A program made the translations under genes and the position numbers. From Myxococcota bacterium (lineage in GTDB: Bacteria; Myxococcota_A; UBA9160; UBA4427): 64,000 bases of DNA. Shown here piece by piece: positions 2 through 22,914 of the stretch. The stretch's first letter is position 1. Every line of letters starts with the position of its first letter. The stretch spans positions 99,392 to 163,391 of the forward strand of contig JAQWRT010000015.1 in NCBI GenBank assembly GCA_029243605.1, written 5' to 3'. The notes below the pieces were generated by a model. It had not been told where the DNA came from and searched no databases. It was given only the letters and a program-made list of their open reading frames with translations.

Positions 2-1516
2 GTCGAGGAGGCCGGTCTCTCGGGCCTTTGGGCGAGTTCGCTGACCCTCTCCTGCGCCGCGGGTCTGCGGGATAACAGTGAACTCACCATGACCGAGGTG
101 CTGGAGGTGCTCGAGAGCATCACCGCCCGGGCGAATATCCCGATCCTCTTCGACGGCGATACGGGCTACGGCCAGTTCAGTCATTTTCAGCAGCTGGTTC
201 GCAAGCTCTGCGTTCGCCGAGTGGGCGGCGTTTGCATCGAGGATAAAATTTTCCCGAAGACCAACTCCTTCCTGCGCTCGGAGGGACAATCCCTGGCGCC
301 GGTGGAAGAGTTCGCGGGCAAGCTTCGCGCGGGCAAGGACGCTCAGACGGATCCTGATTTCGTCGTGGTGGCCCGAACCGAGGCCTTGATTGTTGGTCTG
401 GATACCGCAGCGGCTATCGATCGCGCCGAGCGATACGTGGACGCGGGCGCCGATGCGATCCTGATTCACTCCAAGGAACGCACCTTTGCTCAGGTTCAAG
501 ATTTCATGTCGAAGTGGAGCGGCCGGGCCCCGGTGGTCTGTGTGCCCACCACGTATTACAGCACGCCCATGGAGGCCTTCGATCAGGCGGGCGTTTCCCT
601 GGTGATCTGGGCGAATCATATGCTGCGCGCGGGGATCGGTGCCATGCAGTCTGTGGCGAACGAGATCGGTGCAAAGGGAACGGCGCGAGATCTCGAGGAT
701 GCAATCGCTCCGGTCAAGGAAGTCTTCCGACTCCAGGATGCCGACGGTCTGCTCGAGGGTGAGAAGACTTATCTGCACAAGGAGTCCGGGGTGTCGGCTC
801 TCGTGTTGGCTGCGTCCCGGGGTACGGGTCTCGATGAGCTTACGTCGGATCGGCCCAAGGCGATGATTCCCGTTTCGGGCATGCCGGCCATCGAGAAAAT
901 GCTGCAGAGTATGCGTGCCGAGGGCATCAAGGATATTTCTGTGGTTCGTGGCTACCGGCCCGAGGCCCTCGCACCGGCGGGCGCGAAATTCTTCGACAAC
1001 CCCGATTGGGAAGAGAACGGCGAATTGGGATCACTGGCTGTGGCCCGAGACGCGATCAGGGGCGACACGGTCATCGCCTACGGCGATGTGGTCTTCAAGC
1101 GCTATATCCTGCACCTGCTGCTCTCGTCCGATGCACCCATCACCCTGGTGGTGGACGGCTCGCGTTCCTTCCTCGAGTCGGGACGCAGTGTCGACCGGGT
1201 GAAGGTTTCCGGTCCGGCTCCGAGCGCGTACGACGAATCTGAGAACTGGCTGGAAGCCGCCTCCGAGGGCTTGGCAGAGGATATGACCCACGGGGAGTGG
1301 ATCGGCATGCTTCGGGTTCGCGGTGAGGGGGTGGAGTCGTTCCAAGAGGCTCTGGACTCGACCTTGGCCCGGCCCGGGAGCGGCCAACTCGACCTGTGCG
1401 CGCTGCTCGACGAGATCGCCCAGGCCGACCCTCGTGCCATCCGGGTCATTTATATTCATGGCGGCTGGATCGATATCAACAGCCTGGCCGATGTCGCTCG
1501 CAGCGGCGACGTCTGA
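2..1516 (+). CDS. pepM: Phosphoenolpyruvate mutase (PepM) fused to a C-terminal LicC/MobA-like nucleotidyltransferase domain; 5' partial, continues upstream of the window
   Basis: The frame is open from nt 2 (VEEAGLSGLWASSLTLSCAAGLRDNSELT precedes the track Met at 89), so the N-terminus lies off-window. PEP-mutase/isocitrate-lyase superfamily motifs: ILFDGDTGYG, GVCIEDKIFPKTNSF, VVARTEAL, GADAILIHSK. From about nt 800 the sequence becomes an NTP-transferase fold (ALVLAASRGTGL..DRPKAMIPV..IAYGDVVF). Confidence 0.85.
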   Translation, partial: VEEAGLSGLWASSLTLSCAAGLRDNSELTMTEVLEVLESITARANIPILFDGDTGYGQFSHFQQLVRKLCVRRVGGVCIEDKIFPKTNSFLRSEGQSLAPVEEFAGKLRAGKDAQTDPDFVVVARTEALIVGLDTAAAIDRAERYVDAGADAILIHSKERTFAQVQDFMSKWSGRAPVVCVPTTYYSTPMEAFDQAGVSLVIWANHMLRAGIGAMQSVANEIGAKGTARDLEDAIAPVKEVFRLQDADGLLEGEKTYLHKESGVSALVLAASRGTGLDELTSDRPKAMIPVSGMPAIEKMLQSMRAEGIKDISVVRGYRPEALAPAGAKFFDNPDWEENGELGSLAVARDAIRGDTVIAYGDVVFKRYILHLLLSSDAPITLVVDGSRSFLESGRSVDRVKVSGPAPSAYDESENWLEAASEGLAEDMTHGEWIGMLRVRGEGVESFQEALDSTLARPGSGQLDLCALLDEIAQADPRAIRVIYIHGGWIDINSLADVARSGDV

Positions 1517-1558
1517 ACCCCTTGCCAGGCCGACTTCGGCCGAGCGGAGGCTCCACCC

Positions 1559-2743
1559 TTGCCCCTCGATCCGCAAGTTCTCTTTCGCGCGCTGCTCGGT
1601 GCGGGAATCACCGGCCTTGCCGGCGTTCCTTGCTCCATCCTCAACCATCTGACGCTTGAGGCCGAAGCATCGACGGAGATCGATTATATCCCGGCCTCGG
1701 TCGAAGGTGAGGCGGTCTCCGCCGCCGCGGGTATGTGGCTCGGGGGTGGGCTGGGCGCCGCAATGATGCAGAACTCCGGGCTGGGGAACGCGGTGAACCC
1801 GTTGGCTTCTCTCTCGGTCCCCTATGAGATTCCCGTGCTGATGATCGTCTCCTGGCGGGGCGAGCCGGGTAAGAAGGATGCGGTTCACCACTATCCCATG
1901 GGAGCGGCGACTCCGGGCCTCTTCGAGTTGCTCGATATTCCGGCGACGGTGCTTCGCGAAGAGACAGATCTGGATTCCGCGGTCAAAGATGCGGTGGCTT
2001 ATATGCGTAAGGAGCGTCGCCCTGCGGCGCTGATTGTTCCGCGCGGCCTCTTTCAGAAGCCTTCCGCCGACGGGGATGGCGAAGGGACTCGCCGGGCGGC
2101 TCCGATCCTGGCCCGGGAAGTCATTTCCGAGGCCCCTCGGGCTCGGGCGTTCGGCGGCGGGGAGTTGCCGAGTCGAACCGAAGTCCTGGGTGCCTGGCTG
2201 GAGCGTTACCCCGAGGCCCTTGCGGTTTCGACTACCGGCTTCATGTCCCGAGAGGTTTCCTCACACGGGATGGTGGACCGACATTTTCCCATGCAGGGTT
2301 CCATGGGCTTTGCCTCGGCCATCGCTCTGGGGCTCGAGCGCAGCGCGCCCGGCGGCCGACCCGTCCACGTCCTCGACGGAGACGGAGCGCTGATCATGCG
2401 TCTGGGCAGCCTCGCCACCATCGGCGCTCTGGCCCCCCGGGCCTTTACCCACGTGGTGGTCGATAATGGAACCTACGCCTCCACCGGAGGCCAGCTTACA
2501 GTTTCGCCCCATGTGGACTTTCCTGCTGCGGCCCTGGCCTGTGGCTACCGGGCAGCGGCTCACTGTCGCGGAGTCGGTGGTCTCGCGGAAGCGCTGGAGT
2601 GGGCCGGGAGCGAGGCCGGGCAAGGTCCTGTTCTGCTCCAGATTGCGGTGGACGAGCGGGAAGCCGAAGGCCTCGAGCGGCCGGCGCTTTCGCCCCAGGA
2701 GATCGCGTTGGCCTTTCGGGATGCCGTGGCAGGTCGGGGTTGA
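1559..2743 (+). CDS. ppd: Phosphonopyruvate decarboxylase (thiamine-diphosphate dependent)
   Basis: TTG start 8 nt after GGAGG (1546-1550). Ppd-type N-terminus GITGLAGVPCSIL and a TPP-binding region LDGDGALIMRLGSLATIG..VVVDNGTYASTGGQ. It sits immediately downstream of pepM, the canonical pairing. Confidence 0.85.
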   Translation: MPLDPQVLFRALLGAGITGLAGVPCSILNHLTLEAEASTEIDYIPASVEGEAVSAAAGMWLGGGLGAAMMQNSGLGNAVNPLASLSVPYEIPVLMIVSWRGEPGKKDAVHHYPMGAATPGLFELLDIPATVLREETDLDSAVKDAVAYMRKERRPAALIVPRGLFQKPSADGDGEGTRRAAPILAREVISEAPRARAFGGGELPSRTEVLGAWLERYPEALAVSTTGFMSREVSSHGMVDRHFPMQGSMGFASAIALGLERSAPGGRPVHVLDGDGALIMRLGSLATIGALAPRAFTHVVVDNGTYASTGGQLTVSPHVDFPAAALACGYRAAAHCRGVGGLAEALEWAGSEAGQGPVLLQIAVDEREAEGLERPALSPQEIALAFRDAVAGRG

Positions 2744-3504
2744 TGACCGACCGACCGAAAGCGGCGGTGATCTTGGCGGCGGGTATGGGAACGCGGCTTA
2801 AGAATGTTTTCTCGGATCGCCCCAAGGGCTTCGTGGAAATCGGCGGAGAGGGGTTGATCCATCGCTCGGTTCGCTTGCTCCAGGAAAGGGGCATCGAGCG
2901 GATCGTCATTGTTTCTGGCCATATGGGGTCGGCTTACGAAGCCCTGGCCGCCGAGCTTCCTGGTTTGGAGGTGGTTGAGAACGCTGAGTTCGCCACCACC
3001 GGCAGCATGGCGTCGCTGGCCCGTGCCCTCGAAGCCGTGAATGAAGATTTCCTTCTCCTCGAGAGCGACCTCTTCTACGAAGAGCGTGCCCTGGATGTCC
3101 TCTTGGAGGACGAAGCGCCCGATATCCTCCTGGCCTCAGGTCCTACCGGTGCCACCGATGAGGTCTGGATTGAAGCCTCCTCCGGCTGCCTTCAGAGCAT
3201 GTCCAAGGATCCCGCCGAACTCGGCGAGGTCTACGGAGAACTCGTGGGCATCGTTCGTATTTCGCATGCCCTGGCTCGGGAGATGGTCAGAGCCTATGAG
3301 CGCTTTGTCGAGGAAAACGGCCATGGCCAGATGGCGTATGAGACCGACGCCCTGGTCGAAGCCGCGGGCCAGCGCCCGGTGGCTCTACGCCTGGTTCCCG
3401 ACCTGCTCTGGGGCGAAGTCGACTACGAACACCACTACCTCCGGGTCCGAGATGAGGTGTGGCCCCGCTGGGCTTCCGGCCGGGCTGCCGATCATTCGTC
3501 ATAG
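2743..3504 (+). CDS. LicC/PntC-like nucleotidyltransferase (putative phosphonate or phosphoalcohol cytidylyltransferase)
   Basis: The ATG at 2743 overlaps the ppd stop (TGATG at 2741-2745). Nucleotide-binding loop AVILAAGMGTRL, followed by DRPKGFVEIGG and a C-terminal WGEVDYEHHY. The 48 upstream codons of track ORF 2599..3504 overlap ppd and are Arg/Gly-rich shadow. Confidence 0.8.
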   Translation: MTDRPKAAVILAAGMGTRLKNVFSDRPKGFVEIGGEGLIHRSVRLLQERGIERIVIVSGHMGSAYEALAAELPGLEVVENAEFATTGSMASLARALEAVNEDFLLLESDLFYEERALDVLLEDEAPDILLASGPTGATDEVWIEASSGCLQSMSKDPAELGEVYGELVGIVRISHALAREMVRAYERFVEENGHGQMAYETDALVEAAGQRPVALRLVPDLLWGEVDYEHHYLRVRDEVWPRWASGRAADHSS

Positions 3505-3554
3505 CCCTCGAGCCGCGAACTCGGCGCGCAAAATTTAGTTCACAGGAGAAAAGC

Positions 3555-4670
3555 ATGGATATGCCCAAGCGAAACGTCTTGCTCAACCCAGGCCCGGCGA
3601 CGACCACCGATTCGGTGAAGGCGGCTCTGGTGATCTCCGATATCTGTCCCCGGGAGCGCAGTTTTTGCGATCTCTATTCCGATGTTCGAAAGCGCCTTGC
3701 GGCCCTGGCGGGTGATCCCGACCAGGTGGTTGCGATTCCCGTAGTGGGCAGTGGGACCACAGTGCTCGAGGCGGGTCTGGTTAGCCTGATCCCTTCGGGT
3801 GGCCGGGTGCTGATTCTCGACAACGGAGACTATGGGACACGCTTGGCGGCAATCGCGGCCGCCCACGGCATCGACCACCGGCGCGTAGAATTGGGATGGG
3901 GGCAGCGGATCGATTTTGAGGCCCTCGATGCCGTACTCGCCGAAGAGCAGGGGAGGGCGACCCACCTCTTCGCCATCCATCACGAAACGAGCTCGGGCCT
4001 CCTCAATCCCTTGGACGCCCTGGTGGAGAGAGCCCACGCTCACGGTCTCAAATTGATGCTCGATGCCATGTCGAGTTTTGCGGCGATGCCCATCGAGGTG
4101 GGTGAACACGCGGTGGACATGCTCTTCTCGAGCTCAAATAAGTGTGTCCAGGGGATGGCGGGGCTGGGCATTGCCATCACCACCCGGGCGCTGCTCGACG
4201 AGGTTCGCCCGACGCCTCGGCGCTGCTACGTGTTGGACCTGGTGGCCGAGCACGATCATCTCGAGAAGACGGGCCAGAGCCGCTTTACCGTTCCTCCCCA
4301 GGTGGTATCGGCGCTTCATCAGGCGCTCGTCGAACTCGAGGCAGAAGGGATCCCCGCGCGCCAGAAGCGCTATCAGGAGAGTATGCAGACCCTGATGGCG
4401 GGGCTGGCTGAACTGGGCTTTGAATTCCTGCTCGAGGACGAGGACCAGAGCGAGATTCTGGTGGCTATCCACGAGCCGAGCGGGGACTGGTACGATTTTG
4501 ATCGCATGCACGATGCTCTCGATGCCGAGGGCTTCACCATCTATCCCGGCAAGCCCGGAGCCCAGCCGACCTTCCGGTTGGCGGTGCTGGGGGCCATCGA
4601 TGCCCGAGATATCGAGAACTTTCTTGCCGCCCTGGGTCGCTACCTCGAAGGCGTGAAGGGAAGCGCCTGA
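3555..4670 (+). CDS. phnW: 2-aminoethylphosphonate:pyruvate aminotransferase (class V aminotransferase)
   Basis: AGGAGA (3544-3549) lies 5 nt upstream of the ATG at 3555. N-terminus NVLLNPGPATT and PLP-lysine region SSSNKCVQG are typical of PhnW/AepZ. Operon context with pepM and ppd. Confidence 0.85.
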   Translation: MDMPKRNVLLNPGPATTTDSVKAALVISDICPRERSFCDLYSDVRKRLAALAGDPDQVVAIPVVGSGTTVLEAGLVSLIPSGGRVLILDNGDYGTRLAAIAAAHGIDHRRVELGWGQRIDFEALDAVLAEEQGRATHLFAIHHETSSGLLNPLDALVERAHAHGLKLMLDAMSSFAAMPIEVGEHAVDMLFSSSNKCVQGMAGLGIAITTRALLDEVRPTPRRCYVLDLVAEHDHLEKTGQSRFTVPPQVVSALHQALVELEAEGIPARQKRYQESMQTLMAGLAELGFEFLLEDEDQSEILVAIHEPSGDWYDFDRMHDALDAEGFTIYPGKPGAQPTFRLAVLGAIDARDIENFLAALGRYLEGVKGSA

Positions 4671-4671
4671 T

Positions 4672-5586
4672 TTGAAGCAGGAGATCGCGCTTCGCTTGCT
4701 TCTGACCCTCGGCGCCATCTTCGCGGTGGCCGGGGCTTGGGTGCTGGGCCAGTGGGCCGTGCGGGGTCGGACAGCTTCCCAATCCCGAATGGGGACGCGC
4801 TTCCTTGTGGAAGTCGGCATCCTGGCCGGAGTCTGGGGCCCGGCTTATTTGGGTGGCGGCTGGCTCTTGGCGGGAGTTCTAGTCCTCGCCTGGCTCTGCA
4901 CGCGGGAACTCTACGCCACCCTGAAGGTCGGCGGGGAGCGTCCGTGGGCCGGGGTGGGGGTCGCCGTGACGCTCGGCGCGATTCTTTTCGTTTACCAGTC
5001 GCCGGATGCCGCCGGCTGGCTCTTTCCCGTGGCTCTCGGGCTCTATGGGGCGCTGCGCTGGATCGTTTCCTCCCGCCAGGCCGCCCCCGACTCGCCCCTG
5101 GCCCGGGTGACCAGCACGGGACTCGGCTTTGTCTACCCCGGCTTGTGCCTCGCCGTCTTTCTTTCTCTTGGGCTGCGGGAAGAGGGCTTCGGCTATGCGA
5201 TCTTCTTCTACGGCCTGGTCGAGGCCAATGACGTCTTCGCCTACCTCGTGGGAAGCGGGATCGGCAAGCGGAAAATTTTTCCGGTGTTGAGTCCCAATAA
5301 AACCCTGGAAGGCGTTGTGGGTGGGCTCTTGGGGACCGTGGCTGTGGGCTTCGCTTTTTCCTTCGCTGTGCCCGATTTTGGCCCGTTGCGCGTCGCGAGC
5401 GCAGCGCTTCTGATCGGTTTGGCAGGGCTCGGGGGTGATCTTTTTGCCTCGGCGCTCAAGCGACGTGCCGGGGTCAAGGACTACGGCAACCTGGTCCCTA
5501 CTCAGGGCGGCGTGCTGGACGTTTACGACGCATTCTTCTTCGTAACCCCGGTCTTTTACGGTTTCCTAGAACTCACCTCGGGTTGA
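4672..5586 (+). CDS. CdsA-family (CTP_transf_1) integral membrane cytidylyltransferase-like protein, divergent signature
   Basis: TTG start 1 nt after the phnW stop. Multi-pass hydrophobic protein. Family region SPNKTLEGVVGG...GDLFASALKRRAGVKDYGNLVPTQGGVLDVYD resembles the CdsA signature, but it has Q for the usual H and V for the usual R (signature recalled from memory). Confidence 0.75.
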   Translation: MKQEIALRLLLTLGAIFAVAGAWVLGQWAVRGRTASQSRMGTRFLVEVGILAGVWGPAYLGGGWLLAGVLVLAWLCTRELYATLKVGGERPWAGVGVAVTLGAILFVYQSPDAAGWLFPVALGLYGALRWIVSSRQAAPDSPLARVTSTGLGFVYPGLCLAVFLSLGLREEGFGYAIFFYGLVEANDVFAYLVGSGIGKRKIFPVLSPNKTLEGVVGGLLGTVAVGFAFSFAVPDFGPLRVASAALLIGLAGLGGDLFASALKRRAGVKDYGNLVPTQGGVLDVYDAFFFVTPVFYGFLELTSG

Positions 5587-5623
5587 TCCGAGGGTGATAG
5601 GCTGGGGGAGGAGGGGTAGCCCC

Positions 5624-6373
5624 GTGCGATACACACTCGCCGACGTGAAGGCGTCCTACGGACCCGAGAAGGCCTGGGCCGAGATGCAGGGTGATCTGCC
5701 CTGCTATCTCATCTATCGCCCGATTTCCTTTTGGGTGGCTTTGCCCTTTCTCTGGTTGGGGATCCCCGTGCTCGTGATGACGAGCTTCTCTCTGGTGATC
5801 GCGCTCAGCCTTCCTGCCATGGCCTATTGGGGGGGAGAGCACGCCTATCTCGGGGTGGCGGGCCTGGGCTTCCTCTATCACGTCATGGACTGTGTGGATG
5901 GCAACATGGCGCGCACCCTGGGCCGCACGAGCCGCCTGGGCGCGATTCTCGACGGGACCATCGATATGAGCTTTTGGTGCCTGCTCTTGCTCTCGCTTGG
6001 ACTCCTTGTGGACGGTCAGGCCGGGGGGTTCTGGGACGGTCACGCCGTCGCGCTCTCCCTGGGGCTCGCAGTGCTCTTGCTCCTCAATCGCCAGACGCGC
6101 GACAATTTCAGCCTGCAAAATCGAGATGCCACGTATTTTCGCAGTGAGATTCCCGAGCGGCTCAGCCTCGGCGATCGCCTCATGATGGCGGTGGTCGGCC
6201 TCGAGTTCGTCTACGTCTTTGCCATAGCCCTGGGCGGGTGGTTCGGAGGGCTGGAGTGGGTTCTGCTCGGCATTGCGATCTACGTCGGCCTGATGTTCCT
6301 CGGGGCCGTCGGGCTCACATGGATTCAGGCGGCTCGTCTGGATCGGGATCCCCCGCCGCAAGATCCTCGTTGA
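5624..6373 (+). CDS. CDP-alcohol phosphatidyltransferase family protein
   Basis: Intact family motif D-x2-D-G-x2-A-R-x8-G-x3-D-x3-D (DCVDGNMARTLGRTSRLGAILDGTID) and several TM segments. I prefer the GTG at 5624, about 7 nt after a GGGGAGGAGGGG run, over the track start at 5594. Confidence 0.8.
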   Translation: MRYTLADVKASYGPEKAWAEMQGDLPCYLIYRPISFWVALPFLWLGIPVLVMTSFSLVIALSLPAMAYWGGEHAYLGVAGLGFLYHVMDCVDGNMARTLGRTSRLGAILDGTIDMSFWCLLLLSLGLLVDGQAGGFWDGHAVALSLGLAVLLLLNRQTRDNFSLQNRDATYFRSEIPERLSLGDRLMMAVVGLEFVYVFAIALGGWFGGLEWVLLGIAIYVGLMFLGAVGLTWIQAARLDRDPPPQDPR

Positions 6374-7904
6374 GCGAGCGGAACCAAGTTCGGTTTCGCT
6401 TGTAGTAGTCCAGAAAACTTTGGTAGCGGCTGTCGTAGAGTTCACGGTTCCCGGGGTTGGGCTCGAAGGTATCCGTGACTTCGACGAGATCGCTCATGGC
6501 GTCGAGTTGGTCGATTTCGCCCAGGGCGCGTAGGGCGATCAGTGCAGCGCCGCGAACCCCGCAGAATTGCGGGTTGGCCACCCGCTCGACCCTTTTGCCG
6601 AGGACATCGGCCATGATCTGGCACCAGATATCGCTTTGGGCGCCGCCGCCGGTGATTCGAACGCTGGGGACCGGGGCTCGGAGAAGTTTCTCCACGACGC
6701 CCAGGGCCCACAGGTTGTTGTACGCAACGCCCTCGAAGACCGCGCGCAGCAGGTGTCCCCGGTCGTGATCGAGAGAGAGATTGACGAACCCGCCGCGCAC
6801 GGTGGCATCGTCGACCGGGACGCGTTCGCCCATGAGCCAAGGGAAGAAGAACACGCCCCCCGCACCCGCCTCGCAGGTTTCGACCAGGTGGTTGATGGTG
6901 TCGTAGTCCGTCTCGCTGCCGAGGATTTTCTTGCGCACCCATTCCATCGAGGCACCGGCTGTCTCCTGGGTGGCAATTAGGATGTACTTGCCATATTCCG
7001 CCGCGCAAAGGGTGCCCGTGGCCGCGAAGGGATTGACGGCTCGGTCGTCGAGGTGGGTCGCGACCCACGAACTGGTGCCGAGGTAGATATGCACGTCTCC
7101 ATCCTTGACGGCCCCCGAACCTACGGCGCACGAGGGGACGTCGCCGGCGCCGGCAATCACGGGAACGCCCGGGGGCAAGCCGAGATCCGAGGCGGCCTCG
7201 GCACCGAGGTCACCGACAATCTCGGTGGAGGGCAGGACTTCGGGGAAGCGGTCGGTGTCGAGATCCAGCATGCGAAGAATCTCGGCCGACCAGCCGAGTT
7301 CTCCCTTGCGAGTCTTGAAGAGCCACCCACCGCTGGCCAGATCGTAGGTGGTCGTGGACCGCCCGGTGCAGCGCATGACGAGGTAGTCCTTGACGTCGAG
7401 CAGGCAATCGGTCTGCTCCCACAACTCGGGCCTTTCGTCGCGTAGCCATATAAACTTGGAAATCGTGTCGCGTCCGGCCAGGCTGGGCACGCCATTGGTG
7501 GCGCGTAGCCACTTGATGAGTCGGGGGAGTCCGTAGCCTGCGACCCGGGGCTGCCCCGAGGTTATCTCCCGGGCCTGTTCTCGGGAGCGCGTGTCCAGCC
7601 AGATCATGGCGTTCATGAGGGGCTTGCCCGCGGAGTCCACGGGCAGAACCCCGAACATCTGGCACGAGAAGACGACGGCGGAGACCTGAGCCGGGTCGAA
7701 GCTGGATTGGCTCCAGAGTTCCCGGGCGGCGGAAGAGATTGCGCTCCACCACGCGTAGGGGTCCTGTTCGGCCCATCCCGCCTCGGGGTAGATCACCTCG
7801 AGGCTGCTGCGGGCGCAGTCGCGGATCTCGCCCGTATGAGAAACCAGGGCGACCTTGATTTCGGACGTGCCCACATCGATCGCCAGGACATTTTGTTCGC
7901 TCAT
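6315..7904 (-). CDS. FGGY-family carbohydrate kinase (xylulokinase/glycerol-kinase-like)
   Basis: The ATG at 7904 gives MSEQNVLAIDVGTSEIKVALV, the FGGY N-terminal phosphate-binding motif. C-terminal motif ITGGGAQSDIWCQIMADVLG. The 80 extra codons of the track ORF (to 8144) run into devA and look like shadow sequence. Confidence 0.85.
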   Translation of the reverse strand: MSEQNVLAIDVGTSEIKVALVSHTGEIRDCARSSLEVIYPEAGWAEQDPYAWWSAISSAARELWSQSSFDPAQVSAVVFSCQMFGVLPVDSAGKPLMNAMIWLDTRSREQAREITSGQPRVAGYGLPRLIKWLRATNGVPSLAGRDTISKFIWLRDERPELWEQTDCLLDVKDYLVMRCTGRSTTTYDLASGGWLFKTRKGELGWSAEILRMLDLDTDRFPEVLPSTEIVGDLGAEAASDLGLPPGVPVIAGAGDVPSCAVGSGAVKDGDVHIYLGTSSWVATHLDDRAVNPFAATGTLCAAEYGKYILIATQETAGASMEWVRKKILGSETDYDTINHLVETCEAGAGGVFFFPWLMGERVPVDDATVRGGFVNLSLDHDRGHLLRAVFEGVAYNNLWALGVVEKLLRAPVPSVRITGGGAQSDIWCQIMADVLGKRVERVANPQFCGVRGAALIALRALGEIDQLDAMSDLVEVTDTFEPNPGNRELYDSRYQSFLDYYKRNRTWFRSLNEDLAAGDPDPDEPPESM

Positions 7905-8025
7905 TGACTGAAAATTCCCTCGCCCATTCGCCGGCCCGGCCTCGCGCGACATCCCAGGACTTTGACCGTAGCCGAGGGGTCGATGCAGGGAAACGGTGGG
8001 GTGCCGGGTCGTGATTCGCCAGATC

Positions 8026-8727
8026 TCATTCGGAGAGCCGCACGTCTGAGTCCAGTTGACCATCGACGAGATTGATGAGTCGGTCCGCCGACTCAAAAAC
8101 TCGGGCATCCTGGGTGACCATGAGTACGGTGGTGCCTCGCTCATGGGCGAGCTCAGCGAGTAACCCGAGAACGATCTCGGTGTTTTCCCCGTCGAGGGCC
8201 GCCGTGGGTTCGTCGGCGAGGACCAGGGCCGGGCGGTGTACCAGGGCTCGGGCGATGGCGACTCTCTGCCTTTGGCCGCCGGAGAGTTGGTGGGGGCGAT
8301 AGTCGAGCCGTTCCCCCAGGCCGAGCTGGGTCAGCAGCGCACGAATGCGGTCGTCCATTTGGTCGGCGGCTTCGGGGTGAAGGTCTCCAGCCATCTGGAC
8401 GCTCTGAAAGGCCGTGAGTGCAGGGAAGAGGTTGTGGAGCTGAAAGATGAAGCCGAGTTGCTGGCGATAGCTTTCGAGTCCCGGGCTCTCGAGGGTATTG
8501 AGGTCGTGACCCAGGACATTCAGTTGTCCGCCCTGGGGCCGGCGCAGGGCACCCACCAAGGAGAGCAGGGTTGTCTTACCCGAGCCCGAAGGCCCCGTCA
8601 TGATCGCGAACTCACCGGGTTCGAGAGAGAGATCAATCTCGAAGAGAACCTGCTTGGCGGTTTCGCCCGTTCCGAACGAGTAGTCCAGCCCTGCGATTTC
8701 AATGGCCTTGTTCGCTGCGGAAGTCAT
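8026..8727 (-). CDS. ABC exporter ATP-binding subunit, DevA-like
   Basis: Walker A GPSGSGKTT, ABC signature LSGGQRQRVAIARAL, Walker B LVLADEPTAALD. The ATG at 8727 has a GGAG about 6 nt upstream. Operon context with DevC/DevB-like genes. Confidence 0.9.
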   Translation of the reverse strand: MTSAANKAIEIAGLDYSFGTGETAKQVLFEIDLSLEPGEFAIMTGPSGSGKTTLLSLVGALRRPQGGQLNVLGHDLNTLESPGLESYRQQLGFIFQLHNLFPALTAFQSVQMAGDLHPEAADQMDDRIRALLTQLGLGERLDYRPHQLSGGQRQRVAIARALVHRPALVLADEPTAALDGENTEIVLGLLAELAHERGTTVLMVTQDARVFESADRLINLVDGQLDSDVRLSE

Positions 8728-8803
8728 GGAAGCTCCAGGCGCTCGCTTGATCGAAAATTCTCGAGTTGAGGATACATTCGTTTCGCCCGGGCTTCCTCCC
8801 GGC

Positions 8804-9943
8804 TTAGAAGAGTTCAGCAGGCTCAAGATTGCGGACTTTGCGCAGGGCGAGGGTTCCGGCCAACGTGCACATGCTGACGGCGAGGAGACCCACATTGAGA
8901 GCATCGCCCAAGCTTATGCCCGCTGGGAGCCCACTGCTCCAGCCAAGGACTGCCAGCATGAACGACCCCAGGACGAGAGAAGGCACGAAGCCCAGGGCGG
9001 AAAGCAGCACGGACTCGACCATGACGACGAATTGGATGTAGCTATCTCCGTAGCCCATGGCCTTGAGCGTGGCGAATTCGGCGAGGTGGTCGAGGACTTC
9101 GGTGTAGAGAATCTGATAACAGATGACGACTCCGACCGCGAAGCCGAGGGCAACGCCGACGAGCAAGATGACACTAATGGGGGTGCCCGTGCGCCAATAG
9201 TCGAGGTCGCGGTCGATCAGTTGGGCTTTCGAGAAAGCTCGCACATCGCCGGGAAGTGTGAGAGCGAGATTTTCGAGGACCCGATTCATTTCGGCGCCAG
9301 GCTTGAGCCTGAGTAGGGCAATTTCGATCCAGTCAGGGCTCTGGCGTGTCAGCTCGAAAAAGGTTTCGTCCGAGACAAGAAGGCTGCCATCGACTTCGAA
9401 ATCCGTGCCCAAGGGAAAGCTGCCGACGATTTCGATTTCCCGGAGGCTCACCTGGGCGATGCCATCGGGTAATTTGCCGTAGGAATCCCGGGCGTGGGAG
9501 TCCAGAAATGCCGTTCCGATGCGATTGAGCTTGTCGACGTTTTCGTTTACCTCGTCGATGAGAAAGGTGGGCTCCCTGGGATTGAAGCCGATCACCCGAA
9601 TCGGGTGCAGGGTCTCCTCCTCGAGATTCTTCCACTGTTCGAGAGCGATCCAGAGAGGGGAAGCGCTTTCGACCCCCTCGACGGAAAGGGCCTGATAGAG
9701 CCTCTCCTTGTGCATTCTGTTTCGGGCAAGGAAGGGGTCCTTCTCCTTGTTGATGACGAGGATATCCGCATCGACTTCGCGCAGGAGCTGGATCGCGCTG
9801 TCCAAAAGTGCGTTTCGAAAACCGATTTGGAGCAGCATCAGGAGCAGGGCGAATGTGACTCCGCCCACTGAGGCGATGAGGCGCCCTCGCTCGTGCATCA
9901 GGAGCCTGAACGAAAAAACGACTGCCCTCATGAGTTTGAGCAT
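8804..9943 (-). CDS. ABC exporter permease, DevC/FtsX-like (paralog 2)
   Basis: N-terminal TM (RLIASVGGVTFALLLMLLQIGF), a large periplasmic region, and a C-terminal FtsX-type TM bundle. Its start shares one nt with the stop of the upstream permease (TGATG on the minus strand at 9945-9941). Confidence 0.85.
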   Translation of the reverse strand: MLKLMRAVVFSFRLLMHERGRLIASVGGVTFALLLMLLQIGFRNALLDSAIQLLREVDADILVINKEKDPFLARNRMHKERLYQALSVEGVESASPLWIALEQWKNLEEETLHPIRVIGFNPREPTFLIDEVNENVDKLNRIGTAFLDSHARDSYGKLPDGIAQVSLREIEIVGSFPLGTDFEVDGSLLVSDETFFELTRQSPDWIEIALLRLKPGAEMNRVLENLALTLPGDVRAFSKAQLIDRDLDYWRTGTPISVILLVGVALGFAVGVVICYQILYTEVLDHLAEFATLKAMGYGDSYIQFVVMVESVLLSALGFVPSLVLGSFMLAVLGWSSGLPAGISLGDALNVGLLAVSMCTLAGTLALRKVRNLEPAELF

Positions 9944-11127
9944 CAGAAGAGCTCCGCCGGGTCAGCTCGCTGGAGCCGGCGAGCCGAGATCAGCGCCGAC
10001 AGGGAACACATGATGAGGCTGAGAGCCAGAATGCCCAGTACCAAGCTTGGCGTCATGTAGATCGGGAGATCCGTAATGTCCTGGATCAGGGGGAAGGCGA
10101 CGAGGCTGAGGAAAAGAGCCGGGCCAAATCCGAGCAGGGCGTAGATCCAGGCCTGTTCGATGATGTAGCGAATTAACTGTTTTTGGGAATAACCCATGGC
10201 GCGGAGTGTGGCGTAGAGGGGGAGGTGATTGCGAATATCGGTGGAGAGAATCTGGAAGAGCACGACCAACCCCACGAGGAACCCGGCCAGGGTACCCATT
10301 CCAAAGATGTCACCGACGGCGGTGTTCTCCACCCAGTGCTGAGTTTGCAGATCGTTCAGTTCGCTTTGGGTGATGACACGGACGTCCTTGGGAAGAGTCT
10401 GCTTGAGGGCCTCGGCGACCTGGTCGACATCGCTGCCCGGTGCGAGGCGAACCAATCCGAGATGGGGTGAGTCCAGGGGGTGGTTGGCGAAGAAGCGGGA
10501 GAATGTGTCGTCGCTCATAAGCATGGCGCCGGCGGCGAGGAAACCGACGCCGAGTTTGAAGTCGCCGACGACCTGGGCGCTCTGGTTGCGCACTTCGACC
10601 TTGCCGTCGGGATCTCGGGGGCCGCATTTATCGCGGGTCATTCGATCGAGGAGGACGGTGCTGGTGGGTTTCAGGGCCTCTAATTGCTCGGTCACCCCGG
10701 GCAGGATCAACGGCGAAGTGTCCGTGTCCGCGGCGATGGGGAAGCCGATGGCAAAGAGCCGACAGTTGGCACCGTTGACCGGGTCTCGCCAATTCGCGTA
10801 GCGAAAGTAGACGGGGGTCGTCCCGATGACTTCGGGTTGGGTTTGGGCCTGGTAGAGGCGGCTGGCGGGGATCGTGCCCGTGGCCCCCAGATAGGCGAAG
10901 CGCGGTGAGATCAAGACGATGTCGGCGTCGAAGCGGCCCGAAACAGCGAGCGCCGTATTCAGCACTGCACCGTAGAAGCCGAGTTGGACGAACATGACCA
11001 GGATTGCGAAGCCGATGCCGGCGGCGGCCACCGCGGTACGGGTCTTCTTGTGCGACACCAGTTGGATGGAGAAGGGGACCGGTCGCGAGGGGCCGCTCCG
11101 TCGTGTGTACGCGGATACGGGGCTCAA
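9943..11127 (-). CDS. ABC exporter permease, DevC/FtsX-like (paralog 1)
   Basis: Same architecture as the neighbouring permease (TAVAAAGIGFAILVMFVQLGF ... C-terminal FtsX-type TMs, ending PAELF like its paralog). The TTG start overlaps the devB-like stop (TTGA). Confidence 0.85.
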   Translation of the reverse strand: MSPVSAYTRRSGPSRPVPFSIQLVSHKKTRTAVAAAGIGFAILVMFVQLGFYGAVLNTALAVSGRFDADIVLISPRFAYLGATGTIPASRLYQAQTQPEVIGTTPVYFRYANWRDPVNGANCRLFAIGFPIAADTDTSPLILPGVTEQLEALKPTSTVLLDRMTRDKCGPRDPDGKVEVRNQSAQVVGDFKLGVGFLAAGAMLMSDDTFSRFFANHPLDSPHLGLVRLAPGSDVDQVAEALKQTLPKDVRVITQSELNDLQTQHWVENTAVGDIFGMGTLAGFLVGLVVLFQILSTDIRNHLPLYATLRAMGYSQKQLIRYIIEQAWIYALLGFGPALFLSLVAFPLIQDITDLPIYMTPSLVLGILALSLIMCSLSALISARRLQRADPAELF

Positions 11128-12146: not shown

Positions 12147-12316
12147 GGGGAATGAGGCCGGTCTTCCTGCTCTCCGAGGAGGCGGCCCAAGCGGCCCACG
12201 ACTCGTCCGGAAATGGTTGGCGGGGGCGGTTTAGGGGAGGGGCCGCCTCGCCCCCCAGCGCGCGGCGCGAGTATAGGGGCGGCTCCGGGGGCTGCGCTAT
12301 CCGCTGCCCCTCGGGG

Positions 12317-12343
12317 AAAAAGAGGCTCTCAGGGCGCCCTGAG
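12317..12343 (-). terminator. Possible intrinsic terminator after the amidohydrolase gene
   Basis: The minus-strand RNA reads CUCAGGGCGCCCUGAG (perfect 16-nt palindrome, 12328-12343, containing the stop codon), followed by AGCCUCUUUUUCCCC. The stem must open to form a loop and the U-tract is short. Confidence 0.3.
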
Positions 12344-22897: not shown

Positions 22898-22914
22898 GTG
22901 TCTCCCTGGGTTCT

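What the first reader, a model, noticed from the sequence alone, without database searches (positions are those of the whole stretch)
4672..6373. Divergent CdsA-family protein paired with the CDP-alcohol transferase: lipid-donor or lipid-acceptor supply?
The CdsA-like protein keeps the family core (SALKRRAGVKDYGNLVP.QGGVLD). It reads PTQGGVLDV where canonical CDP-diacylglycerol synthases have P-x-H-G-G-x-x-D-R (signature recalled from memory). The same fold family includes CTP-dependent polyprenol/phytol kinases. The protein may therefore make CDP-DAG, in which case the transferase would attach a hydroxylated head group. It may instead phosphorylate or activate a different lipid. These options predict chemically different products: a phosphatidyl-X lipid versus a true phosphono-lipid.
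Basis: partly seen in the sequence, partly recalled or inferred. Interest (0 to 1): 0.55.

Follow-up and report, generated by a model that had tools for sequence, protein, structure and literature searches.

The report
Accessory CdsA-like enzyme in phosphonolipid cluster
A divergent copy of the enzyme that normally makes CDP-diacylglycerol sits in a marine Myxococcota gene cluster for a phosphonate-bearing, exported membrane lipid. It belongs to a conserved non-housekeeping clade that keeps the catalytic core but has a rebuilt substrate pocket, so it probably feeds a specialised lipid pathway rather than bulk phospholipid synthesis.

Summary
Window 4672-5586 encodes a 304-aa CdsA-family protein reading ...SALKRRAGVKDYGNLVPTQGGVLDVYD, where canonical enzymes read PGHGGxxDRxD. 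The change defines a clade: V/L/I replaces Arg247 in 81/81 members, against Arg in 33/33 canonical sequences. The gene is under purifying selection (dN/dS 0.07). All six residues shown essential in T. maritima CdsA are kept, as is the cytidine loop (SPNKTLEG). The clade-specific changes cluster in the loop proposed to hold the glycerol-phosphate end of phosphatidate.

It does not look like housekeeping cdsA. In 23 loci it lies in one module:
- a TolC-like protein;
- a PIP-synthase-like CDP-alcohol transferase (CPT-A);
- a GT4 glycosyltransferase;
- in 15/23 loci, the 2-aminoethylphosphonate (AEP) biosynthesis genes PepM/Ppd/AEPT plus a cytidylyltransferase;
- the CdsA-like gene;
- in 15/23 loci, the neighbouring transferase at 5594-6373 (CPT-B);
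- an FGGY sugar kinase (23/23);
- a DevBCA-type glycolipid exporter.

Best reading (about 0.5): a dedicated liponucleotide synthase supplies the CDP-lipid donor for CPT-A. The neighbouring CPT-B more probably adds AEP from CMP-AEP. Main rival (about 0.27): it activates a non-phosphatidate phospho-substrate. The kinase and housekeeping readings are unlikely. I could not check whether the same genome also has a canonical cdsA. I rate this a new variant of a known kind, with moderate interest.

The parts
2..1516 (+). PEP mutase (N-terminus cut by the window edge) fused to a C-terminal NTP_transf_3 (PntC-type) cytidylyltransferase domain
   Evidence: Pfam PEP_mutase E 1e-41 plus NTP_transf_3 E 9e-10; TIGR02320 275.6 bits, matching model positions 62-282 only. 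The full-length fusion is seen in L005 and L002.
1559..2743 (+). Phosphonopyruvate decarboxylase (Ppd)
   Evidence: TIGR03297 330.9 bits, above the cutoff of 312.5.
2743..3504 (+). Stand-alone NTP_transf_3/IspD-like nucleotidyltransferase (PntC-like). Predicted to make CMP-AEP or a CDP-polyol.
   Evidence: Pfam NTP_transf_3 E 1e-16, IspD E 6e-7. Present in 18/23 related loci, including one without PepM within 10 kb (L003).
3552..4670 (+). 2-aminoethylphosphonate:pyruvate aminotransferase (AEPT)
   Evidence: TIGR03301 377.9 bits, above the cutoff of 360.8.
4672..5586 (+). CdsL: a divergent CdsA-family intramembrane cytidylyltransferase of the 'Arg247-less' clade
   Evidence: PF01148 E 5e-49. 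TmCdsA E 1e-19, or 9e-33 with a profile. AF2 pLDDT 89.8; Foldseek TM 0.60-0.69 to 4Q2E/4Q2G. Forms a single clade in an unbootstrapped, midpoint-rooted NJ tree. dN/dS 0.07-0.19.
5449..5529 (+). Signature region S260...D286: S-x-x-K-R-x4-K-D-Y-G-x3-P-T-Q-G-G-V-L-D-V-Y-D. This is the M8 end plus the B-loop.
   Evidence: Clade-discriminating substitutions S234Y, G240T, H241Q, R247V, I248Y in TmCdsA numbering. Lowest model confidence falls here (pLDDT 59 for residues 271-280).
5624..6373 (+). CPT-B: a CDP-alcohol phosphotransferase family protein, 249 aa from GTG 5624 (the mechanical ORF starts at 5594)
   Evidence: PF01066 30.5 bits. Full CDP-alcohol signature. Best solved relative is human CEPT1 8gyw, E 0.004. 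42-43% identical to CPT_242/241 of L002/L003. P0280 is 100% identical and 249 aa. GGAGG lies upstream of 5624.
6315..7889 (-). FGGY-family sugar kinase (xylulokinase-like), the invariant neighbour of CdsL. Its 3' end overlaps the CPT-B 3' end by 59 nt.
   Evidence: FGGY_N/FGGY_C. TIGR01312 XylB 344 bits against a cutoff of 380. Best PDB match is E. coli xylulokinase 2itm, E 1.5e-53. Adjacent in 23/23 loci, with a partial copy at the contig end in L009.
8026..8742 (-). DevA-type ABC ATPase
   Evidence: TIGR02982 286.9 bits, cutoff 295.8.
8804..11127 (-). Two DevC-type FtsX permeases (8804-9943 and 9943-11127)
   Evidence: TIGR01185 316.8 and 283.4 bits, cutoff 290.35.
11124..12146 (-). DevB-type membrane-fusion protein
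   Evidence: TIGR02971 170.7 bits, above the cutoff of 129. A TolC-like OEP lies at the other end of the module in L005 and 13 other loci.

Best explanation
CdsL (4672-5586) is an active, non-housekeeping paralogue of CDP-diacylglycerol synthase. It uses CTP and the same two-metal cytidylyl-transfer chemistry as CdsA, but its phospho-acceptor pocket (the B-loop) has been rebuilt.

It works inside a conserved envelope-lipid module. In my model, CdsL makes a CDP-activated lipid (CDP-diacylglycerol or a close analogue) in the membrane. The PIP-synthase-like transferase CPT-A lies just upstream of the window start by synteny with L005. CPT-A couples that donor to a phosphorylated sugar or polyol supplied by the adjacent FGGY kinase. 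GT4 extends the head group.

In this lineage, AEP made by PepM/Ppd/AEPT is activated to CMP-AEP by a PntC-type cytidylyltransferase. The CEPT-like neighbour CPT-B (5624-6373) then transfers it to a lipid or glycolipid hydroxyl. The DevBCA/TolC system exports the finished phosphono-(glyco)lipid to the outer membrane.

Shown: family membership, fold, retention of catalytic residues, the clade-specific pocket changes, purifying selection, and gene association.

Inferred: every substrate, the order of steps, and the export role.
For: Family and fold:
- Full-length PF01148 match and CdsA fold.
- All six residues whose alanine mutants lose at least 98.5% of TmCdsA activity are conserved. D144, K167, D219, K226, D246 and D249 (PMC4083444) correspond to D187, K210, D256, K263, D283 and D286. 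The SPxKxxEG cytidine loop is also kept.
- The discriminating substitutions lie in the B-loop, which PMC4083444 assigns to the glycerol-3-phosphate moiety of PA, and at W141E and E222A.

Not housekeeping-like:
- NCBIfam CdsA equivalog scores 75 bits against a cutoff of 385.
- It forms a clade separate from the E. coli CdsA and YnbB clades.
- No uppS/dxr/rseP context. E. coli shows ispU-cdsA-rseP.
- Only 23 loci were found in 185,579 species genomes with a clade-specific peptide pattern. They include Vicinamibacteria at 38-43% identity with the same FGGY neighbour, which overlaps CdsL by 22 nt in L022.

Module conservation:
- FGGY 23/23, DevA 22/23, CPT-A 18/23 (the rest are truncated upstream), PepM 15/23, CPT-B 15/23.
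- CPT-A scores 126-134 bits on the archaetidylinositol-phosphate synthase model and 87-95 bits on the PIP-synthase model. Both enzymes use CDP-lipid plus an alcohol phosphate.
- The exporter matches DevB and DevC above their cutoffs.

Wider clade and precedent:
- Other Arg-less CdsA-likes sit in CPT-CdsL-GT4, CPT-CdsL-GHMP kinase-UbiA, MIPS/Spt-like, and FAS-like clusters.
- E. coli YnbB is an accessory CdsA paralogue next to the CDP-alcohol transferase YnbA, and it does not complement a cdsA knockout (PMC6362211).
Against: - A housekeeping CdsA would normally already supply CDP-DAG. The model does not explain why a dedicated enzyme with a rebuilt pocket is kept in every locus.
- Loss of the otherwise invariant Arg247 and His241, with gain of Glu/Tyr/Thr/Gln, argues that the second substrate is not ordinary phosphatidate.
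- No phosphatase for a phosphatidyl-X-phosphate intermediate was identified.
- The FGGY substrate is unknown.
- Some PepM-containing loci (L007, L011) lack CPT-B. AEP transfer must then be done by another enzyme, possibly CPT-A.
- There is no experimental datum for any member of the clade.
Confidence: 0.5

Rival explanations
1. CdsL keeps the CTP chemistry but no longer acts on phosphatidate. One option is that it cytidylylates the phosphorylated sugar or polyol made by the neighbouring kinase. That would follow Kennedy-type logic: kinase, then CdsL makes CDP-X, then CPT-A puts X-phosphate on a lipid. A second option is that it acts on a non-glycerolipid phosphate such as a sphingoid or ceramide phosphate. 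A third option is that it couples a sugar phosphate to nascent CDP-DAG to give a pyrophosphate-linked glycolipid, as E. coli CdsA/YnbB do for GlcNAc-PP-DAG.
For: - Every clade-defining change is in or next to the proposed phosphatidate head-group site. The new residues (E47, E184, Y271, T277, Q278, Y285) are polar hydrogen-bonding residues. The lost ones include the invariant Arg and His.
- A small-molecule kinase is the tightest partner: FGGY in 23/23 Myxococcota/Vicinamibacteria loci, and a GHMP kinase in the Anaerolineae relative.
- Minimal loci (L014, L015) hold only CPT-A, CdsL, kinase and exporter, with no soluble cytidylyltransferase.
- One relative sits beside MIPS and Spt-like/KR genes.
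- CdsA-family enzymes can use a sugar phosphate: GlcNAc-PP-DAG is formed from PA, CTP and GlcNAc-1-P (PMC6362211).
- Kennedy-like CDP-inositol routes have been proposed in bacteria (PMC9246714).
Against: - No CdsA-family enzyme is known to cytidylylate a soluble substrate.
- CPT-A resembles CDP-lipid-using AIPS/PIPS (126-134 and 87-95 bits) more than CDP-inositol-using IPCT/DIPPS (49-53 bits).
- The protein keeps the full multi-helix membrane architecture of CdsA.
- FGGY kinases usually phosphorylate primary hydroxyls rather than anomeric ones. That fits an acceptor role for X-P at least as well.
Confidence: 0.27
2. CdsL is simply the lineage's housekeeping CDP-diacylglycerol synthase. It has drifted in sequence and happens to lie beside the cluster.
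For: - It keeps all catalytic residues and is under purifying selection.
- No canonical cdsA was found in the 64-kb window or in any fetched flank.
- I could not examine whole genomes.
Against: - The context is never uppS/dxr/rseP. It is always FGGY plus the DevBCA module.
- The clade is patchy: about 20 Myxococcota species plus Acidobacteriota with the same neighbours.
- One MAG carries two copies (L006 and L009).
- The invariant Arg/His of all canonical enzymes are replaced.
- Relatives in other phyla lie in specialised lipid clusters.
- The YnbB precedent shows that such paralogues coexist with cdsA.
Confidence: 0.07
3. CdsL is a CTP-dependent lipid kinase (dolichol, phytol or diacylglycerol-kinase type). 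It would phosphorylate the lipid acceptor rather than make a liponucleotide.
For: These kinases share the PF01148 superfamily (general knowledge). A lipid-phosphate or DAG-handling step would fit a lipid cluster.
Against: - CdsL retains the CdsA-specific C-terminal block S-x-x-K-R-x4-K-D...G-G-x-x-D-x-x-D, including the D219/D249 metal dyad and K226/D246.
- It scores 210 bits full-length on an HMM built only from bacterial CdsAs.
- Its only solved relatives are CdsA, and far more weakly CarS.
- From memory, the kinases lack this block. I could not obtain their sequences to test this directly.
Confidence: 0.04
4. CdsL is a catalytically dead scaffold or regulatory subunit for the neighbouring transferases.
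For: Loss of Arg247, His241 and the K+ ligand Glu222.
Against: - All residues proven essential in TmCdsA are invariant across the clade.
- E222 is not universally conserved, and E222A keeps 16.7% of activity.
- Strong purifying selection, including on the new residues (Tyr285 in 81/81).
Confidence: 0.03

Closest known systems
CdsA, CDP-diacylglycerol synthase (T. maritima TmCdsA, PDB 4Q2E/4Q2G; E. coli CdsA)
   Same: Same Pfam family and fold (TM 0.6-0.69). Same cytidine loop (SPxKxxEG). Same metal-binding Asp dyad and accessory Lys/Asp residues. Similar length and number of membrane helices.
   Different: - B-loop signature is PTQGGVLDVYD instead of PGHGGxxDRxD. W141 becomes Glu and the K+ ligand E222 becomes Ala.
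- Scores far below the NCBIfam equivalog cutoff (75 against 385 bits).
- Only 38% identity, over the C-terminal 122 aa, to E. coli CdsA.
- Accessory-cluster context instead of uppS-cdsA-rseP.
E. coli YnbB, the CdsA paralogue of the ynbABCD operon
   Same: An accessory CdsA paralogue encoded with a CDP-alcohol phosphotransferase. It shares the E-x-N-D motif (Glu at the TmCdsA W141 position) and lacks Glu222. It is the better E. coli BLAST match (98.6 against 79.7 bits). YnbB does not replace CdsA for bulk phospholipid synthesis.
   Different: YnbB keeps the canonical PGHGG..DRID. It forms a separate clade in the NJ tree, with P0114/L028, which carries ynbA/C/D-like neighbours. CdsL loci have no YnbC/YnbD homologues. 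Neither CPT-A nor CPT-B is close to YnbA (E of 1e-4 or weaker).
'Group 1' / 'Burkholderiales_CDP-OH' predicted phosphonolipid clusters (Yu 2013, as summarised in Li & Horsman 2022, PMC8942020)
   Same: PepM fused to a PntC-type cytidylyltransferase, Ppd, AEPT, a second PntC-like enzyme, and a CDP-alcohol phosphotransferase. The predicted Kennedy-like transfer of a CMP-activated aminophosphonate to a lipid is also the same.
   Different: - No 2-oxoglutarate dioxygenase in the window.
- No CdsA-like gene, FGGY kinase or DevBCA exporter is described for Group 1.
- A word-based homologue search with CPT-B found only 58 proteins, all in this Myxococcota-type lineage and none from Burkholderia.
- Products of both cluster types remain uncharacterised.
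Bacterial and archaeal inositol-lipid pathway (CDP-DAG or CDP-archaeol plus inositol-1-phosphate via PIPS/AIPS; mycobacterial PgsA1-PimA; Bacteroides BT_1523)
   Same: CPT-A is closest to AIPS/PIPS. A GT4 with MshA/PimA-type similarity sits beside it. The donor would be a CDP-lipid, which is the product expected of a CdsA-family enzyme.
   Different: CPT-A scores below the curated cutoffs (126-134 against 180 bits). No MIPS lies in these loci. A sugar kinase (FGGY) replaces it as the likely source of the alcohol phosphate. A dedicated CdsA paralogue is not part of the known pathways.
DevBCA-TolC heterocyst glycolipid exporter of cyanobacteria
   Same: The ATPase, two FtsX-type permeases and the membrane-fusion protein match the DevA/DevC/DevB models at or near their curated cutoffs. 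A TolC-like protein is encoded at the other end of the module.
   Different: Different phylum and a different, unknown cargo. There are two DevC paralogues. Linkage to phosphonate and CDP-lipid genes is not known for DevBCA.

Membership tests
CdsA / PF01148 cytidylyltransferase family (broad family) | Full-length match to the family profile | tested here: met
   PF01148 E 5.2e-49, profile positions 2-263 of 264. 210 bits on an HMM built from 34 canonical bacterial CdsAs.
CdsA / PF01148 cytidylyltransferase family (broad family) | CdsA membrane fold | tested here: met
   AF2 model pLDDT 89.8, pTM 0.87, with 10 helices of at least 4 residues by DSSP. Foldseek top hits 4q2e/4q2g, probability 1.0, TM 0.60-0.69 over 264-279 columns.
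CdsA / PF01148 cytidylyltransferase family (broad family) | Catalytic residues shown essential in TmCdsA (D144, K167, D219, K226, D246, D249) and the SPxKxxEG loop | tested here: met
   D187, K210, D256, K263, D283, D286 and SPNKTLEG are invariant in the clade.
Canonical (housekeeping-type) CDP-diacylglycerol synthase CdsA | Signature P-G-H-G-G-x-x-D-R-x-D (the B-loop; PROSITE-type signature recalled from memory and checked on 33 canonical sequences plus TmCdsA, EcCdsA and EcYnbB) | tested here: not met
   CdsL reads P-T-Q-G-G-V-L-D-V-Y-D. At position 247 the clade has V/L/I in 81/81 members, against R in 33/33 canonical sequences.
Canonical (housekeeping-type) CDP-diacylglycerol synthase CdsA | Score above the curated equivalog cutoff | tested here: not met
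   NF008635 75 bits against a cutoff of 385; only the C-terminal 125 residues matched.
Canonical (housekeeping-type) CDP-diacylglycerol synthase CdsA | Housekeeping gene context (uppS/ispU-cdsA-rseP/dxr), and being the only cdsA in the genome | tested here: inconclusive
   Context criterion not met: 23/23 loci show the FGGY/DevBCA/CPT module, against E. coli ispU-cdsA-rseP. Whether a second, canonical cdsA exists in the same genomes could not be checked. None was found in the window or the flanks.
Canonical (housekeeping-type) CDP-diacylglycerol synthase CdsA | PA + CTP gives CDP-DAG + PPi activity; complementation of cdsA | not testable with these tools
   Needs biochemistry or genetics.
YnbB-type accessory CdsA paralogue | Groups with E. 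coli YnbB in a phylogeny | tested here: not met
   In the NJ tree, EcYnbB groups with P0114, P0096 and P0102, and CdsL forms its own clade. The tree has no bootstrap support.
YnbB-type accessory CdsA paralogue | Encoded with a CDP-alcohol phosphotransferase and with YnbC/YnbD-type hydrolase and phosphatase | tested here: inconclusive
   A CDP-alcohol transferase partner is present (CPT-A and/or CPT-B). No YnbC/YnbD-like genes lie in the CdsL loci, whereas L028 (P0114) has them. CPT-A and CPT-B are not YnbA orthologues.
CarS (CDP-archaeol synthase) | Match to CarS profiles or structure | tested here: not met
   NF003114 23.6 bits against a cutoff of 148. A profile search gives 5GUF E 0.21 against TmCdsA 9e-33. 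Foldseek gives 5guf TMq 0.28.
CTP-dependent lipid kinases (dolichol kinase, phytol kinase VTE5, yeast Dgk1) | Kinase-type C-terminal motif in place of the CdsA K-R...K-D...GG..D..D block; grouping with the kinases in a tree | not tested
Retention of the CdsA block argues against membership, but that rests on my recollection of the kinase motifs.
Group 1-type phosphonolipid gene cluster (PMC8942020) | PepM-PntC fusion, Ppd, AEPT, second PntC, CDP-alcohol phosphotransferase | tested here: met
   All five are present at 2-6373.
Group 1-type phosphonolipid gene cluster (PMC8942020) | 2-oxoglutarate/Fe(II) oxygenase, and a second phospholipid-associated gene. An hpnL-like membrane protein appears in the Nostoc/Burkholderia cluster figure of PMC5987646; equating it with that second gene is my inference. 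| tested here: not met
   Neither is found among the genes at 2-15186 of the window. PhyH/TauD-type oxygenases occur only in some relatives: L003, L021, L023, L001.

The most novel reading that the evidence does not exclude
CdsL and the wider 'Arg247-less / Tyr248' clade may be CdsA-fold enzymes that have switched their second substrate away from phosphatidate. They might activate the phosphorylated sugar or polyol made by the adjacent FGGY or GHMP kinase, or a non-glycerolipid phosphate. They might instead form a pyrophosphate-linked glycolipid in an MPIase-like reaction. That would define a previously unrecognised membrane-embedded route to CDP-activated head groups or lipids. In this cluster it would feed a phosphonate-decorated exported glycolipid.
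Probability: 0.27. Interest if true: 0.78.

Novelty: new variant of a known kind. Interest (0 to 1): 0.55.

Why it matters
Phosphonolipid and phosphonoglycan clusters make up about half of bacterial phosphonate biosynthetic capacity, yet no bacterial pathway beyond CMP-AEP formation has been worked out (PMC8942020, PMC6697681).

This locus offers a compact, testable module. It contains a dedicated CdsA paralogue, two distinct CDP-alcohol transferases, a sugar kinase, a glycosyltransferase and a DevBCA/TolC exporter, fused to the AEP pathway in marine Myxococcota.

The finding also exposes a broad CdsA-like clade with no description found in the literature searched. It comprises 66 of the 150 best 50%-identity representatives. 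Its proposed lipid-phosphate pocket has been rebuilt and it always sits in specialised lipid clusters.

Working out its substrate would show how liponucleotide synthases diversify. It could also identify the lipid carrier of marine particulate phosphonates.

Tried and rejected
1. Looking for a canonical cdsA in the same genomes.
- An HMM of canonical CdsAs, run against all ORFs of the window and of 27 loci, found only the CdsL genes.
- Context look-ups of the best canonical hits P0114 and P0088 landed in unrelated assemblies: a ynbABCD-like operon and an ftsH-cdsA-psd context.
- The listing of cluster members gave no taxonomy for ten canonical hits.
- I decided against spending the last large protein search on this, because a same-genome hit was unlikely to rank in the top 120.

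2. Yu et al. 2013 (PNAS) is not held in the library. Its 'Group 1' description is taken second-hand from PMC8942020 and PMC5987646.

3. Literature searches found nothing describing this clade or module. They covered phosphonolipid with a CdsA-like enzyme, Myxococcota phosphonate clusters, and PIP synthase with CdsA clusters.

4. Placing CdsL among the dolichol, phytol and DAG kinases was not possible, because no sequences were available. Only CdsA and CarS comparisons were made.

5. P0131 (an Arg-less representative) lies on a 1.6-kb contig and gave no context.

6. I considered and rejected that the adjacent CPT-B is the obligate partner of CdsL (absent in 8/23 loci). I also rejected that CPT-B is an orthologue of CPT-A (only a roughly 30-aa motif match).

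7. I considered that the H241Q change alone defines the clade and rejected it. Several members keep His. Loss of Arg247 with Tyr248 is the constant feature.


Full report
**What is at the coordinates**

The + strand of window 2-6373 carries a tightly packed operon:
- PEP mutase fused to an NTP_transf_3 domain (2-1516; the N-terminus is cut by the window edge).
- Phosphonopyruvate decarboxylase (1559-2743; TIGR03297 above its cutoff).
- A stand-alone NTP_transf_3/IspD-like nucleotidyltransferase (2743-3504).
- 2-aminoethylphosphonate (AEP) aminotransferase (3552-4670; TIGR03301 above its cutoff).
- The CdsA-like gene, called CdsL here (4672-5586).
- A CDP-alcohol phosphotransferase, called CPT-B here (mechanical ORF 5594-6373).

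CdsL starts at a TTG one base after the AEPT stop codon, behind an AAGGGA Shine-Dalgarno site. Homologues start with the same MK(Q/E/D)EIA. CPT-B probably starts at GTG 5624, behind a GGAGG site. A 100%-identical database protein, P0280, has that 249-aa length.

Convergent to the operon are an FGGY sugar kinase (6315-7889, minus strand) and a four-gene ABC exporter (8026-12146, minus strand).

CdsL reads FASALKRRAGVKDYGNLVPTQGGVLDVYD. TmCdsA, E. coli CdsA, E. coli YnbB and all 33 canonical database hits read ...KD-S-G-x3-P-G-H-G-G-x-x-D-R-x-D.

The homologue search showed a sharp break. There are 86 proteins with E from 1e-180 to 1e-28, the named ones mostly labelled Myxococcota or Deltaproteobacteria MAGs. 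All carry the variant motif. The canonical enzymes follow from E 1e-23 downward.

I compared 81 full-length clade members with 33 canonical sequences. In TmCdsA numbering, the discriminating positions are:

| Position | Canonical | CdsL clade |
|---|---|---|
| S234 | Ser | Tyr/Phe |
| G240 | Gly | Thr |
| H241 | His | Gln (73/81; a few keep His) |
| R247 | Arg 33/33 | Val/Leu/Ile 81/81 |
| I248 | variable | Tyr 81/81 |
| W141 | Trp | Glu 80/81 |
| E222 | Glu | Ala 80/81 |
| query residue 47 (N-terminal region) | Ala | Glu |

The gene is under purifying selection: dN/dS is 0.066 against the ANT-51 orthologue and 0.14-0.19 against more distant ones.

**What kind of protein it is**

- It matches PF01148 end to end (E 5e-49) and scores 210 bits on an HMM built only from canonical bacterial CdsAs.
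- An AlphaFold2 model is confident (pLDDT 89.8, pTM 0.87). Its only strong structural matches are TmCdsA 4Q2E/4Q2G (TM 0.60-0.69). CDP-archaeol synthase 5GUF is a weak partial match.
- A clade profile hits TmCdsA at E 9e-33 and CarS at E 0.21.

Using the numbering offset deduced from the S223C/S258C mutants in the PDB sequences, the following residues are all conserved: D144, K167, D219, K226, D246 and D249. Alanine mutants of these lose at least 98.5% of TmCdsA activity. The SPxKxxEG loop assigned to the cytidine moiety is also conserved (PMC4083444).

The same paper assigns the M8-M9a 'B-loop', which carries the HGGxxDRxD motif, to a tunnel. Together with helix M1, that tunnel would hold the glycerol-3-phosphate group and one acyl chain of phosphatidate. 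The clade-specific changes sit in that loop. In the model, this is also the least confident stretch (pLDDT 59).

My inference is that CTP binding and cytidylyl-transfer chemistry are retained, and that the site for the second, phospho-acceptor substrate has been rebuilt. One invariant cationic residue (Arg) and the invariant His are lost. Acidic and hydroxyl or amide side chains (Glu, Tyr, Thr, Gln) are gained.

**Relationship to known paralogues**

In an NJ tree (no bootstrap), CdsL forms its own clade. It is separate from the E. coli CdsA-type sequences and from a YnbB clade made of EcYnbB, P0114, P0096 and P0102.

BLAST favours YnbB slightly: 98.6 bits and 42% over 117 aa, against 79.7 bits for CdsA. 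YnbB shares the E-x-N-D motif and lacks Glu222, but it keeps PGHGG..DRID.

YnbB is the closest conceptual precedent. It is an accessory CdsA paralogue encoded next to the CDP-alcohol transferase YnbA. It does not complement a cdsA knockout. Like CdsA, it contributes to making GlcNAc-PP-diacylglycerol from PA, CTP and GlcNAc-1-phosphate (PMC6362211).

**Gene context**

This is the most informative evidence. A scan of one genome per GTDB species with the clade-specific peptide pattern found 23 loci. Twenty of these are true clade members. Three more loci came from exact-protein look-ups.

I annotated the flanks by BLAST against labelled reference proteins. This gives one recurring order:

TolC-like OEP, then CPT-A (minus strand), then [Acetyltransf_9], GT4, [PepM-NTP, Ppd], NTPt, [AEPT], CdsL, [CPT-B], FGGY, DevA, DevC, DevC, DevB.

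Counts over 23 non-redundant loci, including the window:

| Gene | Loci | Note |
|---|---|---|
| FGGY | 23/23 | partial at the contig end in L009; adjacent, or separated only by CPT-B, in all but L019 |
| DevA | 22/23 | |
| CPT-A | 18/23 | the other loci are truncated upstream |
| NTPt | 18/23 | |
| PepM | 15/23 | |
| CPT-B | 15/23 | |

The complete 6.25-Mb Myxococcota chromosome OZ252299.1 (L001/L015) has only OEP, CPT-A, CdsL, FGGY and DevABC at this site, with no phosphonate genes. Vicinamibacteria homologues at 38-43% identity keep the FGGY neighbour, which overlaps CdsL by 22 nt in L022.

L005 is a Myxococcota MAG (ANT-51) with 94% CdsL identity and the same gene order as the window. It shows what lies just upstream of the window start: OEP, CPT-A, GT4.

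**The two transferases are different families**

- CPT-A (206-220 aa) scores 126-134 bits on the archaetidylinositol-phosphate synthase model and 87-95 bits on the PIP-synthase model. Both are below the curated cutoffs but are clear relatives. Those enzymes join a CDP-lipid to an alcohol phosphate.
- CPT-B is the window's neighbour gene. It is 42-43% identical to the 241/242-aa transferases of L002 and L003. It has a complete CDP-alcohol signature. Its best solved relative is human choline/ethanolamine phosphotransferase CEPT1 (E 0.004, weak). A word-based search found only 58 relatives, all in this lineage.

The exporter matches the DevB and DevC models above their cutoffs and the DevA model just below. 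This is the heterocyst-glycolipid exporter type. GT4 shows MshA-, MGlcDAG- and GlcNAc-PG-synthase-type similarities. The FGGY kinase is xylulokinase-like: TIGR01312 scores 344 bits against a cutoff of 380, and its best PDB match is 2itm.

**A wider clade**

An exhaustive HMMER search of 1.84 billion representatives gave 28,893 family members, of which only 36 had E at or below 1e-30. Among the best 150, 66 have lost Arg247. Most of those carry Tyr at position 248, reading GG..D[VILA]YD.

Contexts of four such representatives, plus one canonical-motif relative:
- Anaerolineae: CPT, CdsL, GHMP kinase, UbiA.
- An operon of CPT, CdsL and GT4.
- MIPS, OEP, a class-I/II aminotransferase, an SDR, CdsL ... 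GT4, ABC.
- GT4, then CdsL beside a FAS-like cluster.
- P0087 is the canonical-motif sequence that branches nearest CdsL. It lies between a fatty-acid desaturase/SDR pair and a DevBCA-like exporter.

So these divergent CdsA-likes are recurrent components of specialised lipid or glycolipid clusters. They commonly sit with a PIPS-like transferase, a GT4 and a small-molecule kinase.

**Interpretation**

The most economical model assigns each conserved gene one job:
1. CdsL makes a CDP-lipid.
2. The FGGY kinase makes a phosphorylated sugar or polyol.
3. CPT-A joins them, as PIP and AIP synthases do.
4. GT4 extends the head group.
5. In PepM-bearing lineages, AEP is activated to CMP-AEP (PntC logic, PMC6697681) and transferred by the CEPT-like CPT-B.
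6. DevBCA-TolC exports the product.

The donor would serve the off-window CPT-A rather than the adjacent CPT-B. The locus would then encode both phosphatidyl-type and phosphono-ester chemistry, not one or the other. I give this model about 0.5.

Its weakness is that it does not explain why a dedicated enzyme with a rebuilt phosphatidate pocket is invariably kept. The rival, at about 0.27, is that CdsL acts on something other than ordinary phosphatidate. Candidates are the kinase product (Kennedy-type kinase, cytidylyltransferase, CDP-alcohol transferase logic; compare PMC9246714), a different lipid phosphate, or an MPIase-like pyrophosphate coupling.

The remaining readings are unlikely:
- Housekeeping CdsA: about 0.07.
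- CTP-dependent lipid kinase: about 0.04.
- Dead scaffold: about 0.03.

**Limits**

- No member of the clade has been studied experimentally.
- All substrates are inferred.
- The NJ tree has no support values.
- The kinases of the superfamily could not be included in any comparison.
- The key refutation test, whether a canonical cdsA exists in the same genomes, could not be run. Only 20-kb flanks were readable. The window itself holds none. The rest of the window is ordinary chromosome: PheST, DnaJ, GAPDH, acyl-CoA dehydrogenases, CoA-transferases and autotransporters.

**Novelty and verdict**

The phosphonate half of the cluster is a member of the known, still uncharacterised, Group 1-type predicted phosphonolipid clusters (PMC8942020). 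I found no description in the held literature of two things:
- the Arg247-less CdsA-like clade;
- its fixed association with a sugar kinase, a PIPS-like transferase and a DevBCA exporter.

I rate it a new variant of a known kind, namely an accessory CdsA paralogue in the manner of YnbB. Interest is 0.55.

Noticed in passing
window 5594-5630: The CDP-alcohol transferase ORF is called from GTG 5594. A GGGGAGGAGGGG Shine-Dalgarno site at 5606-5617 and a 100%-identical 249-aa database protein (P0280) point to GTG 5624 as the real start.
   Followed up: partly
window 6315-6373 and 7890-8144: The convergent FGGY kinase and CPT-B genes overlap by 59 nt at their 3' ends. The mechanical FGGY ORF (609 aa) carries an N-terminal extension of about 85 aa that is absent from homologues (about 510-525 aa) and overlaps the DevA gene, so the extension is probably spurious.
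   Followed up: partly
window 8026-12146 (minus strand); L005 1177-2832: The ABC exporter next to the cluster is of the DevBCA (heterocyst glycolipid exporter) type and has two DevC paralogues. A TolC-like outer-membrane protein sits at the other end of the module in 14 related loci. DevBCA-type exporters also flank the canonical-motif relative P0087 (L039).
   Followed up: partly
L033/L034, L035/L036, L037, L038: Arg247-less CdsA-likes from other sources sit in other specialised clusters: CPT, CdsL, GHMP kinase, UbiA prenyltransferase (Anaerolineae); a CPT, CdsL, GT4 operon; inositol-1-phosphate synthase, OEP, aminotransferase (serine-palmitoyltransferase-like family), SDR, CdsL; and GT4, CdsL next to a FAS-like ACP/KS/FabA/AT set. 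The third hints at a link to sphingolipids or inositol lipids.
   Followed up: partly
L002, L011, L012, L016, L017, L019, L020, L027 (upstream of GT4/PepM): An Acetyltransf_9 protein of about 390-400 aa, with no NCBIfam match, was seen in 8 loci, all of which carry PepM. It is absent from the window's closest relative, L005. It might N-acylate AEP or the head group.
   Followed up: no
L013 and L018: These loci have NTPt (and, in L013, a full AEPT; L018 shows only an 81-aa AEPT match) plus CdsL and CPT-B, but no PepM/Ppd within the fetched flank. Either the C-P bond genes lie elsewhere or AEP is scavenged.
   Followed up: no
L006 and L009 (DUCT01000170.1 and DUCT01000182.1, MAG UWMA-0336): One MAG carries two CdsL copies (68% and 64% identical to the query) on two contigs. 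This may be strain mixing in the bin or a true duplication.
   Followed up: no
L028 (contig of P0114): A ynbABCD-like operon in an environmental assembly: YnbB-like CdsA paralogue, SnoaL-like protein, YnbA-like transferase (44% identical to EcYnbA), hydrolase/methyltransferase, and PAP2/DSPc phosphatase. This shows the YnbB-type module is conserved outside Enterobacteria.
   Followed up: partly
L025/L026 (Thermoguttaceae) and L024 (Myxococcota): Further CdsA-like variants matched the clade-specific peptide pattern. The Thermoguttaceae proteins read KDSGTNVPGFGGFLDVYD (His to Phe, Arg to Val) and group with canonical sequences in the NJ tree. This suggests Arg247 was lost more than once.
   Followed up: no
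window 12000-16000: G+C rises to 70-72% here, against about 63-65% around it. Many long overlapping ORFs occur on both strands. The amidohydrolase ORF (12329-14197) has an Arg/Pro-rich N-terminal extension of about 140 aa that is probably not translated. Amidohydro_3 and CoA_transf_3 follow the exporter in most related loci.
   Followed up: no
window 15897-34500: Two large autotransporters (19760-22897 with PATR repeats, and 29829-33119) are interleaved with two more family-III CoA-transferases (one of them a double-domain 802-aa protein), two AMP-binding ligases and two SDRs. This looks like an acyl-CoA or organic-acid metabolism island.
   Followed up: no
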